Below are positions 3,441-54,417 of a DNA stretch of 64,000 nt, one piece after another. The notes under the pieces are model-generated. The model had not been told where the DNA came from, did no database searches, and saw nothing but the letters and a program-made list of their open reading frames with translations. The position numbers were made by a program, and so were the translations under genes. The stretch lies in assembly GCF_009914755.1 (NCBI RefSeq), contig NC_060931.1. The stretch is one strand, 5' to 3'. Numbering within the stretch: position 1 is the stretch's first letter; each line of letters starts with the position of its first letter. Origin of the DNA: the human T2T-CHM13v2.0 reference genome, Homo sapiens.

Positions 3441-5847
<2,407 letters not shown>

Positions 5848-13900: not shown

Positions 13901-16179
13901 ATTTTAAAATGTATTAAAATATCAATGCCTTCTATTATTGTGTAAAACTTCAGCTCACATTCTGATTACAGTAAAAATCTATATAAACAAATACAGCTCT
14001 TTTGCTAAAAAAAGAAAGTGAAACAACTCTATTGAGATATACTGTATCTTTCAGTGAGAGAAAACCTACAAATGGTGACTTAACAAAGACCAAGATAGAA
14101 ATGTGTTATACATTATGTATTTTAAGTGTATTAACATTTGCATCATATTGAAGTGTTATAATCTTAAAAATTATATAGTTCTGGTGTTATAATCAATAAA
14201 CAAATCAGTACTAACCCAAAATATTTTTGTAATAATAATTTTTAAAAATGTATAAAATTAACGTCTACAACAGCAGTCAAATATCTGAAAAAATATGCAT
14301 GTCGCTACCTTGAATAGAAATTTGCCTAATTTTGTATTCAATTATTTGTCATTTTTCTTAACGACCAAACTATTTCCCAATGTCCCTTGCAATTAGGCAT
14401 CACAGTGTGGCAGTTCTGGCCAGTGGCTAACAAGCTGAAATAATATGCTCAAATTTATTTTGAGTGTATATAAAGGGAACCGCTATCTTGGTCTTTGTTA
14501 AGTCACCATTTGTAGGTTTTCCCTCACTGTAAGATACTATTTTTATATCAAATATTTATTATTCTTCTAGACAAAATTTACAATCAAACTACAAGTCCTT
14601 CCTCCCTACACCTCCCATCCACTGATCCCTATATAAATTGAAAAATCACATATAATATCTTTGAATTCAGTTTTTCCATCTTACATTTTAGATGATATAG
14701 CTCTGTCCCTATTACTATAATTATAATTCAGCAACATTTTATATTTTTATTAAAATGTTTGATATCTCCTTTTCAACTTTAGGAACACATTACAATTTCT
14801 ATATCTTTATTTATATTTGACATCTCTCAAAGGTGAAGAACATACTAATTATTCTCTTCCACAATTCTGTTTTGTAAATTTCCTATATTCATATTTGAGC
14901 TATACAATTTGATTTTTAGCACACAAAAATTCATTGAATGAATTATTTCTCTTTTCAATGTGAAATAAAATCCTTTGTTTTTTTTAATGCATTTTCCCTT
15001 GAATTCAATTTTTTCATAAATTATGGTCATTGCCTATGCATTTGATTTATAGGTTCCTAATTAGTTTTTGTGTATTCTTTAATTTCCAACCTCTAATTTT
15101 CCTAGATTGTGTTTCTTAAGAGCAGCCTATGGTTGAATTTTTAAAAATATGGGGCTATATTACTTTTATACAGATGTTTCCATAACCTATGTGTTTGGTT
15201 ATTCTCTCACCTATTTTTTTCTCTCTTTTACTACATGAACTATGTTTTGATTCTACATTTATTTGTAATTCATGCACTTGAAATATTCAAATGATTTCCT
15301 TTAAGTTTCTCAAAAACATGATTCATTATATACTTCTCAAGTTAATCAAAAATAAGTCATCTTTTGCTTATTCTCTATATAAGACTATAAAATTAGAATG
15401 CTTTATTTTTATCCCCTACTTTCTACCACCCCACTTTTCTCCCTCCCCCAACACAAACTTAGTGTTCTTACAATAGACTGGTCACTTGTACACAAATAAT
15501 TGCTATTAAATTACATCATATTATACACTTATTTTTAATGGTTCCATTATTATAACCATAATTAGACCAATTATTTTAACCTTATGTTTAATCAGTTTCA
15601 ATATTCTCTACCTGCTTTCTATCTCACGGTATTCTTATGCTTGTGCTTTTAATCTTGGTGTTGTTTTGTTGCCTGAAGTGAGTTTTTCCAAGGTCACTGA
15701 AGCCATATATTTCTAAAATACTTTATGGCCAGGATTGTCTTCTATTTCTATCTTACATAAAAGCAATTCAAAAGAATATATAATTCTTTGCTCATAATCT
15801 TTTCATCATGAATTTAGACTGATCTCTCTTTCTGAACTTTTTTGGTTTTAAACATCTTTAAGAATTCAGTAAAAGGGCCTCTACATAGAAAACAAGTATT
15901 CTATTCAAAATAGTAACAAAATTTTATATGGGCTTTTATAATACAAGAATTGCCTGAAGCTCACGCATTAATCTTCAAGTAAAGAACTTCTTAAAAAGAC
16001 AGTTCTAAGGTACATATGAAACCAATCTTCCAATCCTTATAGGTAAAATATTTTATTTACCTAAATATGTTATTTGTAAGATTTTCTCTTCATCACAATA
16101 ATTCAGATTTTTTTCCTTGCTTATGTTGGTTCAAAGTTGCCTTTTGATTTTTTTGATTTTTTTGTTGTTGTTTTTTCCT

Positions 16180-32371: not shown

Positions 32372-32428
<57 letters not shown>

Positions 32429-32625
32429 ATTTATTTATTTATATATACATAACACTTTAATATATATAACCAATTTATATATATATAACCAATTTATATA
32501 TATAACCAATTTTTATATATATATAACCAATTTATATATATATATATAACCAATTTATATATATATATATAACAAATTTATATATATATATATATATAAC
32601 ACATTTATATATATATATATATATA
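32372..32625. repeat. (TA)n plus a TATAACCAATTTA-type minisatellite
   Basis: Directly visible. Confidence 0.97.
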
Positions 32626-41969: not shown

Positions 41970-43335
41970 AGATGGAAATGAAAGAAATAAAATGTCTTTG
42001 TTCACCGACAATAACATCGCATAGATAAAAAATCCTAATGATTCTACTAATAAACTACTATAAATTATAAGTGATTTAACAAGTTTGCAGAACATAAAGC
42101 CAATATGCAAAAGTCAATTGTGTATTTCTAAACAACTGTATTGGGGTAAATGTCCTCCACATATTTAATGCATACAATTGGATGAGTTTGGACCTGTGAT
42201 ATACCCATGAAACCATCACCACAATCAAGGTGATAGACATATCAATTACATCCGAAGTTTTCTTTTATCCATCAGGTTTTGTTGTGTTTGATTTTGTGGT
42301 AAGAACACCTAACATAAGATCTACCGTGCACTTAAAAATTTTAAGTGCACAATAGGCACTATGCTGTATATCATATATGTAGAACTAGTTCATCTTCTGT
42401 AGGTGAAACTTTATACTAATTGCACAACATTCCCATGTCCCTCTTCCTCCAGCCTTTGGTAACCACCCAACCGTTCTATTCTCTGCTTTTATGAACAATT
42501 GTTTCTTTATAAACTAGCTATAAATAATTGGAGAATGAAAGTATAAATATGCCATTTGTAATACCATCAAAAATAAAACTATTATGAAGAAACTTAATGA
42601 CAGATATGCAAAGTACCCTATGAAGAAACTTAAAGACTCACATGCAAAGTCTCTACCCTGAAAATCACAAAATATTGGTGAAAGAAATATTAAAAACAAA
42701 AGCAAAAACCTACATAAATGGTAAGCCAACTGGTTCATAGATGGGTAGACTCAATATTGTTAAGACGTTCATTCGTCTAAAATGATTTTTTTGCAATCCC
42801 AACAGCCCATTTTTGGCCGGGTACAATTGAAAACTTGACTCTAAAAGTTTTATGAAAATTCAAAGGGCCTAGAATAGCCAAAAAAATCTTGAAGTTGAAG
42901 AACTTGTACCAGCTCATTTCAGAACCTACTCTATTGGGTCAAGATAGTGTGGTACTGGTGTAAATAAAAATAAATAATAAGTTAGAAAGTTCAGAAACAG
43001 ACCCACACTTCCACTATCAACTGATTTTAATCAAAGAAGCACAGTTAATTAAATGGAAAAGTGAATGGTGCCATAACAGATTAACCATATTTTAAAAAGT
43101 GACCATTGGTCTCTATTTCTAACTGTCCTCAAAATTAAATTCTATATGGATAGATTTAATCATCAATGATATATTATAAGTCTCTAGAATAATTTAAAGA
43201 ATATATCAGAGAATGTTTTCACAACATTGGAGTAGCACTAGTTTTCTTAGAAAGTAAAAAAAGCAATAACAATAAAAAGAAAAAATTTAAACATTGAACT
43301 TTTAAAGTTTAAAATACTTGATCATCAAAAGACAG
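41970..43335 (+). mobile_element. Old L1M ORF2 fragment with a nested antisense L1M 3' end (~42135-42490)
   Basis: 'aaaatgtctttgttcaccgac...aaaatcctaatg', 'tcaatattgttaagac', 'gggcctagaatagccaaaa'. Confidence 0.7.
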
Positions 43336-43864
43336 ACTGGTTATCCTGCCTTTTTAAGGATGGTATTATTTTATTGCTGAACTGGGCAGCTCTACGCTTA
43401 CATGTGTGTTGCCTAAAAGTCTGGTACTGACTTTTGGTCACTATAAGGATGCGATATACTAGCAAATGATTATGATATGTTATTAAAAGTTTGAAGCACA
43501 TCTGGAGACACCTACTACTCCCTTGTCTATGTAGTTTATAAATGTATACACTGGAGGTGTTGTGTTGGTTTAATTAGTTACATCACCTGGCTTTAGCTAC
43601 TTGACAATGGAGTATAAAAGACTCTGCAGCAATTATGCTTTGCCTCTCGTGAAGCTGAGCTATCTCATGCATATCTTGGTAGTTCAAAATCCAAAGAAGA
43701 AAAGAACCTGGAGGACTACAGCTCTAAATTTTCAGGTCTATGGTTGTCTGTGCTTTCCCCTGTTGCGCTTTATTGGATGGTAGGAAATGGTAACCACAGT
43801 TATCTTTTTCCCCATATGATTAACCAGTTGTTATATCATCTTTTGTTGAAAATACTTTGCTTTC

Positions 43865-44027
43865 TCAACAAAAGGTGATGTAACAACTGGTTAATCATAT
43901 GGGGAAAAAATACTTTTGTTGAAAATACTTTGCTTTCTCAACAAATGGTGATGTAACAACTGGTTACATCACTGGCTCAGCTTCACGAGAGGCAAAGCAT
44001 AATTGCTGCAGAGTCTTTTATACTCCA
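43865..44027. other. Complex templated insertion at the L1 5' junction
   Basis: Inverted copy of 43805-43849, direct copy of 43840-43893 and a perfect inverted copy of 43608-43660. Confidence 0.93.
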
Positions 44028-44732
44028 CCTCATACCAGTTAGAATGGCGATCATTAAAAAGTCAGGAAACAACAGGTGCTGGAGAGGATGTGGAGAAACA
44101 GGAACATTTTTACACTGTTGGTGGGACTGTAAACTAGTTCAACCATTGTGGAAGTCAGTGTGGCAATTCCTCAGGGATCTAGAACTAGAAATATCATTTG
44201 ACCCAGCAATCCCATTACTGCATATATACCCAAAGGATTATAAATCATGCTGCTATAAAGACACATGCACATGTATGTTTATTGCGGCACTATTCACAAT
44301 AGCAAAGACTTGGAACCAAAGCAAATGTCCAACAATGATAGGCTGCATTAAGAAAATGTGGCACATATACACCATGGAATACTATGCAGTCATAAAAACT
44401 GATGAGTTCATGTCCTTTGTAGGGACATGGATGAAGCTGGAAACCATCATTCTCAGTAAACTATCGCAAGGACAAAAAACCAAACACCACATGTTCTCAC
44501 TCATAGGTGGGAATTGAACAATGAGAACACATGGACACAGGAAGGGGAACATCACACTCTGGGGCCTGTTGTGGGGTGGGGCGAGGGGGGAGGGATAGCA
44601 TTTGGAAATATAACTAATGTTAAATGACGAGTTACTGGGTTCAGCACACCAACATGGCACATGTATACATATGTAACAAACCTGCACGTTGTGCACATGT
44701 ACCCTAAAACTTAAAGTATAATAATAAAAAAA
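44025..44732 (+). mobile_element. 5'-truncated L1PA4-like element
   Basis: ORF2 C-terminus ([16 protein letters not shown]...SLIGGN), 3'UTR, A-tail; TSD GAAAATA(C/T)TTTGCTTTC at 43848-43864 and 44733-44749. Confidence 0.97.
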
Positions 44733-44914
44733 GAAAATATTTTGCTTTCCTATCCTTTAGTTTTACTAAAACCTTGCATGTGGTTACCCTATAGAATCTC
44801 ACGAGTCTTCTTATTTACCCGATCCTGAGTTATACATGCTCTTTCCCTCCTAAACTACTGAATTTCTTGTTTTAAATCTATAATATTCCACGTACTAGAT
44901 ATGAATGTAGTGGC

Positions 44915-45050
44915 TAGTTGTTTAAATTTCTTAAGCTTTGGTTTTCTCATCAATATAATGAGAGTAATTATAGTACCAACCTCATGGGGCTGTTGTGAGG
45001 ATTAAATGAGTGATTATAAGTGAGGTGTTTAGAACTGTGCTAAATGGCTA
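44915..45050 (+). mobile_element. MIR fragment
   Basis: 'ggttttctcatc...atagtaccaacctcatggggctgttgtgaggattaaatgag'. Confidence 0.75.

Positions 45051-53907: not shown

Positions 53908-54417
<510 letters not shown>

What the first reader, a model, noticed from the sequence alone, without database searches (positions are those of the whole stretch)
43577..44749. L1PA4-like insertion with a ~160-bp multi-template-switch patchwork of its own flank at the 5' junction
Seen: between the left TSD (GAAAATACTTTGCTTTC, 43848-43864; right copy 44733-44749, 1 mismatch) and the L1 5' end lie four pieces. (a) 43865-43909 is an inverted copy of 43805-43849 (43/45), making a hairpin looped by the TSD. (b) 43913-43966 is a direct copy of 43840-43893 (53/54); it includes a third TSD copy and the junction made by (a), so it was copied after (a). 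(c) GTTACATCACTGGCT folds back on the preceding GTGATGTAAC and nearly matches 43577-43592. (d) 43975-44027 is a perfect 53/53 inverted copy of 43608-43660, joined to L1 through a CCA overlap. Established: templated insertions with microhomology are typical of Pol theta-mediated end joining or MMBIR, and L1 5' ends are resolved by host repair. Inference: this is a fossil of at least four ordered snap-back or template-switch events during one L1 integration. It also leaves a cruciform-capable 45-bp inverted repeat.
Basis: partly seen in the sequence, partly recalled or inferred. Interest (0 to 1): 0.85.

Follow-up and report, generated by a model that had tools for sequence, protein, structure and literature searches.

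The report
L1 insertion with flank-copied filler DNA
A truncated L1 retrotransposon carries at its 5' junction 163 bases stitched together from inverted and direct copies of the neighbouring DNA, an unusually elaborate example of a rare but already described by-product of how L1 insertions are completed.

Summary
A 5'-truncated L1 lies at 44028-44732. It encodes ORF2p residues 1114-1275, followed by 3'UTR and a poly(A) run. It is bracketed by a 17-bp target-site duplication (TSD) that matches 16/17.

Between the left TSD and the L1 lie 163 bp. Of these, 152 are copies of the upstream flank: two inverted (43/45 and 53/53) and one direct (53/54, holding a third TSD copy). The remaining 11 bases are partly explained by further short templates.

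The few copy-versus-source differences (4/169) look like later drift, which argues against an assembly artefact. The placement strictly inside the TSD ties the patchwork to the L1 integration.

The class is already in print. Short foldback inverted duplications of the 5' upstream target, 52-220 bp, were seen in about 0.3% of somatic L1 insertions (Nam 2023). Inverted duplication by self-annealing of the resected reciprocal end has been described (Mendez-Dorantes preprint), and so have flank-templated insertions in tumours.

This is therefore a germline fossil of a known kind, but more complex than those examples, with at least five junctions. The order of events, the polymerase, and whether everything happened in one episode remain inferred. 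No orthologous empty site could be examined.

The parts
43577..43592 (+). Candidate source of piece (c). Its first 12 nt are the exact reverse complement of 43873-43884.
   Evidence: (D3, I7)
43608..43660 (+). Source of inverted piece (d). It lies 188-240 bp upstream of the target site.
   Evidence: 53/53. Unique in the genome apart from its own copy.
43805..43849 (+). Source of inverted piece (a) and left arm of the hairpin. It lies within a ~60-bp fragment of an old, highly repeated family.
43848..43864 (+). Left target-site duplication. This is the 3' overhang of the 'reciprocal' end after the second-strand nick.
   Evidence: 16/17 to 44733-44749
43865..43909 (+). Piece (a): inverted copy of 43805-43849.
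   Evidence: 43/45. At both differences the copy keeps the family-majority base.
43910..43912 (+). Linker ATA. With its neighbours it completes a 10-nt match (43907-43916) to the TSD interior 43849-43858.
   Evidence: rank 3 of 64 trinucleotides, so only suggestive
43913..43966 (+). Piece (b): direct copy of 43840-43893. It holds a third TSD copy (43921-43937) and the TSD/(a) junction.
   Evidence: 53/54
43963..43977 (+). Piece (c): about a direct copy of 43577-43592 with one base skipped. It overlaps (b) by GTTA and (d) by GCT, and is also a 10-bp fold-back on 43948-43957.
43975..44027 (+). Piece (d): inverted copy of 43608-43660. Its last 3 nt (CCA, 44025-44027) are shared with L1.
   Evidence: 53/53. 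Junction aligned to another L1 copy.
44028..44732 (+). 5'-truncated L1: ORF2 C-terminus 44029-44514, stop 44515-44517, 3'UTR, and a poly(A) run at 44726-44732.
44733..44749 (+). Right target-site duplication.

Best explanation
An L1 integrated by endonuclease-dependent target-primed reverse transcription at a T-rich/AA site. The bottom strand reads 5'-...TATTTTC/AAC, and the stagger was 17 nt.

Before the 5' end was joined, the 'reciprocal' end was resected on its 5' strand. This is the left flank, whose top strand ends in the 17-nt TSD overhang. Its 3' tail then served as a wandering primer, in these steps:

1. It folded back on itself, with 2 bp of pairing one base from the tip and an 8-9-nt loop. 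It copied 45 nt of its own strand, giving (a).
2. It dissociated and made a direct copy that again ends with the TSD plus the same fold-back junction, giving (b). Two routes are possible. It may have copied a complement of the new junction. Or it may have copied the single-stranded TSD complement on the L1-primed end up to the duplex boundary and then folded back again in the same register.
3. It made a short further switch, giving (c).
4. It folded back a last time 190-240 nt upstream, giving (d).
5. It finally annealed through CCA to the L1 cDNA and primed second-strand synthesis. This fixed the 5' truncation at ORF2 codon ~1113.

Shown: the sequence relationships, the junction overlaps, and the position inside the TSD. 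Inferred: the wandering strand, the order, the single episode, and the polymerase. For the polymerase I would split roughly equally between Pol theta-type end joining, a replicative or repair polymerase such as Pol delta, and ORF2p itself.
For: - Pieces and identities. Pieces (a), (b) and (d) cover 152 of the 163 filler bases.
- TPRT hallmarks: TSD 16/17, poly(A) abutting the TSD, T-rich/AA target, and L1 ORF2p homology at E 3e-99.
- Nothing of the filler lies outside the TSD pair.
- Junction overlaps: AAAA and CTTT around the linker, GTTA, GCT, CCA.
- The extra TC at the TSD/(a) junction is templated by 43848-43849. Those bases are physically present only on the reciprocal end's own top strand. 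This favours that strand as the primer.
- Age coherence: there are 4 differences in 169 compared bases, 2.4% pairwise (95% CI 0.6-6.1%). No piece deviates from the pooled rate. The L1 3'UTR's nearest copies are 95-97% identical.
- Polarity: at both (a)-versus-flank differences the copies carry C, the majority state in 19 of 30 and 24 of 30 paralogues. The flank carries T. The source therefore drifted after faithful copying.
- Published counterparts:
  - Nam 2023, section 11 read in full: short foldback inversion of the 5' upstream target in 3 somatic insertions (0.3%) plus 1 combined, attributed to additional DNA synthesis of ~52-220 bp.
  - Mendez-Dorantes preprint, 2026 version, passages: resection and self-annealing of the reciprocal end primes synthesis, giving an inverted duplication with the TSD preserved and 2-bp homology.
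  - Kent 2016, abstract start in the search listing only: Pol theta oscillates between non-templated, cis and trans templated extension.
  - Baldwin 2023, passages: ORF2p extends hairpins and short primers, copies DNA templates, tolerates terminal mismatches, and jumps templates.
Against: - No empty orthologous site or intermediate allele was available, so the single-episode timing is untested.
- Piece (b) needs a template complementary to a junction that exists only on the nascent strand, or else a repeated identical fold-back. Neither is demonstrated.
- Piece (c) as a direct copy of 43577-43592 needs a bottom-strand template in a region that this model supposes was resected.
- Individual pieces of 45-54 nt are longer than the short insertions I recall as typical for Pol theta joining. 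That comparison is recalled, not tested.
- The single (b)-specific difference (43946) happens to equal the family-majority state, held by 29 of 30 paralogues. This would fit (b) being older than (a), although chance is about 1 in 3.
Confidence: 0.6

Rival explanations
1. The timing is the same (during L1 integration), but the wandering 3' end is the L1 cDNA on the primed end. It leaves the RNA, invades the neighbouring duplex in an SDSA-like manner or jumps templates under ORF2p, copies flank segments, and finally fills in opposite the TSD overhang.
For: The tumour long-read preprint reports 22 'templated insertions' in a set of 3,598 somatic L1 insertions. The templates were typically under 250 bp and within 15 bp of the site. 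It cites exactly this cDNA-invasion model (passages). ORF2p performs template jumping and non-templated addition. Microhomologies are symmetrical, so they fit either strand.
Against: Read on the bottom strand, the copy runs to 43849. That is two bases beyond the first-strand nick implied by the TSD (43847/43848), where no bottom-strand template exists on the broken left end. The same two bases would have to arise twice. It also requires invasion of the duplex rather than use of resected single strand.
Confidence: 0.15
2. There were two stages. Integration left only TSD + a 29-nt fold-back + (c) + (d) + L1. Later, a replication template switch at that quasi-palindrome lengthened the inverted arm to 45 nt and inserted the 73-bp unit 43840-43912.
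For: Copies 1 and 2 form a 73-bp-period partial tandem (D1). Quasi-palindromes are classical sites of template-switch mutation (recalled). At 43946 copy (b) keeps the base held by 29 of 30 paralogues, while the flank and (a) share the other base. This fits (a) being copied from a later state of the flank.
Against: The argument rests on one site, with about a 1 in 3 chance of coincidence. The divergences of (a), (b), (d) and the TSD are statistically indistinguishable. The insertion is not a simple tandem duplication: the second unit matches for only 54 of 73 nt, so it needs as many switches as the one-episode model.
Confidence: 0.15
3. The patchwork is the scar of an unrelated later double-strand break repaired at the L1 5' junction. 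Alternatively, the L1 was captured endonuclease-independently into a pre-existing break.
For: Templated inverted insertions arise at ordinary breaks (Yu 2024, abstract). Small inverted duplications are a common human variant class: 277 events with a median of 284 bp (passages).
Against: The filler begins exactly at the last base of a 17-bp TSD and ends in L1 with microhomology. The insertion has poly(A), a TSD and an endonuclease-type target, so it is not an endonuclease-independent insertion. A later break would have to remove L1 sequence back to precisely the TSD edge.
Confidence: 0.05
4. It is an assembly or sequencing artefact, such as a fold-back chimera.
For: Palindromic structures can be created by library artefacts (recalled).
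Against: The copies differ from their sources at 4 of 169 positions. Two of these differences are shared by (a) and (b), and the copies retain family-majority bases. That pattern indicates old drift, not a chimera of present-day reads. The surrounding sequence is single-copy.
Confidence: 0.02

Closest known systems
'Process C' of somatic L1 insertion: short foldback inversion (inverted duplication) of the 5' upstream target site (Nam et al. 2023, PMC10191854)
   Same: An inverted copy of the sequence just upstream of the target lies between the TSD and the L1 5' end. The extra synthesis there was ~52-220 bp; here it is 163 bp. TSD and poly(A) are retained.
   Different: That report covers somatic events in colon clones: 3 cases plus 1 combined. 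Here it is a fixed germline fossil with two separate inverted pieces, a direct piece and a third TSD copy. I read section 11 only, not the figures or supplements.
Remodelling of the ORF2p-generated reciprocal end: resection, self-annealing, primed synthesis, inverted duplication (Mendez-Dorantes et al., bioRxiv 10.1101/2024.12.14.628481, Fig. 4 text)
   Same: The TSD is preserved, the hairpin is small with ~2-bp homology, and the inverted duplication is on the reciprocal side of a 5'-truncated L1.
   Different: Their examples (one clone, one cancer) are described as single inverted duplications. Here there are several rounds, including one fold-back ~190-240 nt from the end.
Flank-templated insertions at tumour L1 insertions (bioRxiv 10.1101/2024.08.27.596794)
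   Same: Non-L1 templates under 250 bp near the insertion site are copied into the insertion.
   Different: That report explains them by cDNA invasion (SDSA-like). The orientation and multiplicity of the pieces are not given in the passages I read.
Pol theta-mediated end joining with templated insertions (Kent et al. 2016, PMC4912351)
   Same: Alternation of cis (snap-back) and trans templated extension with short microhomologies and occasional untemplated bases.
   Different: Dependence on POLQ cannot be tested from sequence. The pieces here are 45-54 nt each.
Twin priming (5'-inverted L1)
   Same: The reciprocal 3' end is used as a primer before the 5' junction is sealed, and the TSD is preserved.
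   Different: The template here is the flank DNA itself, not L1 RNA. No L1 segment is inverted.
5' extranucleotides at L1 junctions (Kojima 2010, PMC2912911)
   Same: Extra bases lie between the TSD and a 5'-truncated L1. This was seen in 160 insertions, 14.6% of 5'-truncated L1.
   Different: In the passages I read their origin is not traced to the flank. Here 152 of 163 bases are traced.

Membership tests
Endonuclease-dependent L1 (TPRT) insertion | L1 sequence ending in poly(A) | tested here: met
   ORF2p 1114-1275 at E 3e-99. A7 run at 44726-44732 after AATAAT.
Endonuclease-dependent L1 (TPRT) insertion | Target-site duplication of about 12-18 bp directly flanking the insertion | tested here: met
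   17 bp, 16/17. The left copy is separated from L1 by the filler.
Endonuclease-dependent L1 (TPRT) insertion | T-rich/purine cleavage site on the bottom strand | tested here: met
   The bottom strand reads TATTTTC/AAC. This is a near-consensus variant. The consensus TTTT/AA is as quoted.
L1 insertion with foldback inverted duplication of the upstream target (Nam process C / reciprocal-end remodelling) | Inverted copy of sequence immediately upstream of the target, placed between the TSD and the L1 5' end | tested here: met
   (a) 43/45 starts 2 nt inside the TSD. (d) 53/53.
L1 insertion with foldback inverted duplication of the upstream target (Nam process C / reciprocal-end remodelling) | TSD retained and short homology at the inversion junction | tested here: met
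   TSD intact. 2 bp (TT:AA) plus a terminal mismatch with an 8-9-nt loop.
L1 insertion with foldback inverted duplication of the upstream target (Nam process C / reciprocal-end remodelling) | Arises in the same event as the L1 insertion | not testable with these tools
   No primate orthologues or human haplotypes are held. The position inside the TSD and the similar divergence of the pieces are indirect support.
Pol theta-mediated end joining (TMEJ) | Templated insertions from nearby flank with 1-6-nt microhomology at the switches | tested here: met
   Overlaps of 3-4 nt at four junctions.
Pol theta-mediated end joining (TMEJ) | Dependence on POLQ | not testable with these tools
   Sequence alone cannot tell Pol theta from Pol delta or ORF2p.
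Twin priming | Inverted 5' L1 segment joined to a non-inverted 3' segment | tested here: not met
   152 of 163 filler bases are flank copies, and the other 11 are too short to be an inverted L1 segment. L1 homology starts at 44025-44028 in the forward orientation only.
Endonuclease-independent L1 insertion at a pre-existing break | No TSD, atypical target, often a 3'-truncated or tailless L1 | tested here: not met
   TSD, poly(A) and endonuclease-type target are all present.
MMBIR / FoSTeS | Replicative template switches from a collapsed fork, often over kb-Mb distances | tested here: inconclusive
   All templates lie within 290 bp of the break, on the same side. Nothing requires a replication fork, and nothing excludes one.

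The most novel reading that the evidence does not exclude
The third TSD copy may be a footprint of an aborted synapsis. After the first fold-back, the reciprocal 3' tail paired with the single-stranded TSD complement still attached to the L1 cDNA on the primed end. It copied that complement exactly up to the duplex boundary left by the second-strand nick and failed to be ligated. It thereby regenerated the original ...GCTTTC-3' tip, so it folded back again in the identical register.

If so, this fossil records several features of the intermediate:
- Both ends stayed together.
- The second nick preceded 5' joining.
- The TSD complement was accessible.
- The same enzyme, possibly ORF2p itself acting on DNA as a DNA-templated twin priming, cycled between cis and trans templates.
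Probability: 0.2. Interest if true: 0.6.

Novelty: new member of a known kind. Interest (0 to 1): 0.35.

Why it matters
How the 5' end of an L1 insertion is joined is still unsettled. It is unclear which strand primes, which polymerase acts, and in what order nicking, resection and ligation occur (Baldwin 2023 and Mendez-Dorantes passages).

Base-resolved multi-step junctions like this one give an ordered record of the choices made by a single 3' end. If many are collected from complete genomes, they could discriminate between the models. One such test is whether extra TSD copies always end at the TSD's 3' edge.

On its own this locus has no annotated gene or functional element nearby. It is a neutral scar.

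Tried and rejected
1. Paralogue-based proxy for the empty site. The 43805-43864 flank belongs to a large old repeat family: 373 + 358 pattern matches in the genome against 0 + 0 for the reversed control. I asked whether the right flank (44750-44850) continues that family's alignment. It does not. Only 1 of 30 paralogues scored more than 2 sd above shuffles, the same as for today's filler. The paralogues say nothing about the empty site. The three closest paralogues show no inverted arm, so the hairpin is not a family feature.
2. Pfam found nothing for the L1 ORF2 C-terminus (0 families). The PDB sequence search did.
3. Rfam found no RNA family in 43300-45000.
4. The subfamily could not be assigned. 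Only nearest-copy identity was obtained.
5. The bottom-strand (cDNA) reading of the whole patchwork was worked through and ranked lower because of the two bases beyond the nick.
6. The linker ATA as a templated step is only suggestive: rank 3 of 64 trinucleotides.
8. No supplements were read, and bioRxiv supplements are closed. Supplementary Fig. 4d of the tumour preprint and the figures of Nam 2023 and Mendez-Dorantes may already show multi-piece cases.
9. Literature searches. In the passages I read I saw no description of a multi-piece patchwork with a triplicated TSD. That is not proof that none is in print.

Full report
**What is there**

The sequence was read directly and analysed with the repeat finder and with scripts.

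- A 17-bp direct repeat flanks the whole structure: 43848-43864 and 44733-44749, 16/17.
- To its right end abuts a short poly(A) run (44726-44732), preceded by L1 sequence.
- 44029-44517 translates without a stop into 162 residues. These align end to end with residues 1114-1275 of human LINE-1 ORF2p at E 3e-99 (8sxt_A). By my count from that alignment, 144 of 162 are identical. The natural stop follows at 44515-44517.
- Pfam has no model for this part (0 families), and Rfam finds nothing in 43300-45000.
- The bottom strand of the target reads ...TATTTTC/AAC at the inferred first nick. This is a near-consensus L1 endonuclease site.

This is therefore an ordinary endonuclease-dependent, 5'-truncated L1 of about 705 bp, except for what lies between the left TSD and the L1.

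**The filler**

Positions 43865-44027 (163 bp) consist of the following pieces.

- (a) 43865-43909 is the reverse complement of 43805-43849, 43/45.
- A linker ATA follows.
- (b) 43913-43966 is a direct copy of 43840-43893, 53/54. It contains a third exact TSD copy (43921-43937) and the TSD/(a) junction.
- Eight bases, CATCACTG, follow.
- (d) 43975-44027 is the reverse complement of 43608-43660, 53/53.

Pieces (a), (b) and (d) cover 152 of the 163 bases.

The eight bases, with their neighbours, form piece (c). It matches 43577-43592 at 15 of 16 with one base skipped. Only 14 of 3000 random 8-mers in that position reach the same alignment score to the flank. The same bases also make a 10-bp fold-back on 43948-43957, so the origin of (c) is the least certain.

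The linker completes a 10-nt match (43907-43916) to the TSD interior 43849-43858. That is only the third best of the 64 possible trinucleotides.

Aligned with another L1 copy in the window (5111-5191), L1 homology begins at the CCA of 44025-44027. Those three bases are also the end of (d).

The junction overlaps are therefore AAAA and CTTT around the linker, GTTA, GCT and CCA. At the first junction two T:A pairs lie one base back from a mismatched tip.

**Not chance, not a repeat family, not an artefact**

- The 53-mer occurs only at its two places in the window, with 0 of 100 shuffles giving two matches.
- A whole-genome search with 43560-44030 returns only self matches for that part.
- Among inverted repeats within 600 bp in the 64-kb window, the only other non-simple-sequence pair of this quality is at 14044/14483.
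- The left arm region 43805-43864 does belong to an old, very abundant family. There are 373 forward and 358 reverse pattern matches genome-wide against 0 and 0 for the reversed control. I recall this family as an ancient L1 ORF2 segment. The three closest paralogues have no inverted arm.
- The family is useful for polarity. At the two positions where (a) differs from its source, both (a) and (b) carry C, the majority state of 19 of 30 and 24 of 30 stored paralogues. The flank carries T. The source therefore changed after faithful copying.
- Likewise the left and third TSD copies agree against the right copy.
- In total 4 of 169 compared bases differ: 2.4% pairwise, 95% CI 0.6-6.1%. No piece departs from the pooled rate.
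- The L1's 3'UTR is 95-97% identical to its nearest relatives among the 40 scored of 1865 candidates.

These figures fit one old event of the age of a middle-aged L1PA. They speak against an assembly chimera. The label L1PA4 itself was not tested.

**Link to the L1**

The filler starts at the base after the left TSD and ends in microhomology with the L1. The only TSD pair brackets filler plus L1. The sequence immediately left of the L1 does not resemble the right TSD. The filler therefore did not pre-exist as the L1's target. A later unrelated break would have had to trim back exactly to the TSD edge.

**Mechanism**

I consider the top strand of the left ('reciprocal') end to be the strand that grew. 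After the second-strand nick it ends in ...GCTTTC-3'. The next bases, TC AACAAAAG..., are templated by 43849 downwards on that same strand. The first two of these (43848-43849) exist only on that strand of the broken left end.

Read on the other strand, as extension of the L1 cDNA, the copy would run two bases past the first nick and would have to do so twice.

On this reading the sequence of events is:

1. After 5' resection the tail snapped back, with an 8-9-nt loop, and copied 45 nt.
2. It let go and produced (b).
3. It made the short (c) step.
4. It snapped back again 190-240 nt upstream to make (d).
5. It then paired by CCA with the cDNA.

Both inverted pieces may have stopped where they met the resected 5' end. 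That point is conjecture.

Piece (b) is the hard part, because its template must be complementary to a junction that exists only on the nascent strand. Two solutions are open.

- The other 3' end had meanwhile copied the nascent tail, and that copy served as template. This is reciprocal extension, as in microhomology-mediated joining.
- (b) was rebuilt rather than copied. CTTTTGTTGA was templated by (a). The rest of the TSD was templated by the single-stranded TSD complement on the L1-primed end, up to the duplex boundary. The tip thus regenerated then folded back in the same register.

I cannot decide between these two.

A two-stage history also remains possible: a simple fold-back at integration, followed by a later replication template switch at the quasi-palindrome. 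Its one piece of support is that the (b)-specific base at 43946 equals the state of 29 of 30 paralogues. Chance would give this about one time in three.

**What is known**

- Nam et al. [quoted passage not shown] They saw it in 3 cases (0.3%) plus 1 combined with L1 inversion. They explain it by additional DNA synthesis of about 52-220 bp during resolution.
- Mendez-Dorantes et al. (preprint; passages of both versions) describe inverted duplication on the reciprocal end in one experimental clone and one cancer. The TSD was preserved and there was 2-bp homology. They propose resection, self-annealing and primed synthesis.
- A long-read tumour preprint (passages) lists 22 'templated insertions' in a set of 3,598 somatic L1 insertions. 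The templates were mostly under 250 bp and within 15 bp of the site. It cites a cDNA-invasion model.
- Kojima 2010 (passages) found 5' extranucleotides in 160 (14.6%) of 5'-truncated L1.
- Candidate enzymes:
  - Pol theta alternates untemplated, cis and trans extension (Kent 2016, abstract start in the listing only).
  - Yeast foldback insertions of 5-34 bp need Pol delta plus end joining (Yu 2024, abstract).
  - ORF2p extends hairpins and short primers, copies DNA, tolerates terminal mismatches and jumps templates (Baldwin 2023, passages).

Sequence cannot choose among these enzymes.

**Verdict**

The structure is a member of a class already described in somatic and experimental insertions.

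What is new is a fixed germline example with more steps than the cases I read about: at least five junctions, two separate fold-backs, and a triplicated TSD. In the passages I read, found through the searches, I saw no such multi-piece case. I did not see figures or supplements.

The 45-48-bp inverted repeat folds very stably as single-stranded DNA: -65.8 kcal/mol for 43795-44035, z -14.7, with 0 of 200 shuffles as good. Whether it extrudes as a cruciform in duplex DNA was not tested.

The decisive orthologue comparison could not be made, because only this genome and prokaryotic, viral and plasmid collections are held.

Noticed in passing
window 14044-14098 and 14483-14537: A second local inverted repeat: 55 nt, 96% complementary, arms 384 nt apart, in unmasked sequence. 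A genome search with 14030-14550 finds only self matches, so it is not a transposon's terminal repeats. It may be another templated inverted duplication, with no retroelement next to it.
   Followed up: partly
window 43805-43864: The L1 landed in a ~60-bp fragment of a very abundant old repeat family: 731 genome matches to a 32-nt pattern against 0 for the reversed control. I recall this as an ancient L1 ORF2 segment. Homology to paralogues ends close to the 3' edge of the TSD.
   Followed up: partly
window 43577-43588 and 43829-43840: The inverted copies (a) and (b) imply that the flank once read GTTACATCACCT at 43829-43840. That is identical to 43577-43588. A 12-nt direct repeat therefore existed in the flank at the time of the event and may have guided the switch that made piece (c).
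   Followed up: partly
window 43946: The only base at which copy (b) differs from copy 1 equals the state of 29 of 30 family paralogues, whereas the flank and (a) share the other base. This is either coincidence (about 1 in 3) or a hint that (b) is older than (a).
   Followed up: partly
window 32399-32625 and 54203-54413: AT-rich quasi-palindromic simple-sequence tracts (TA-rich, 70-86% self-complementary) dominate the list of local inverted repeats in the window.
   Followed up: no
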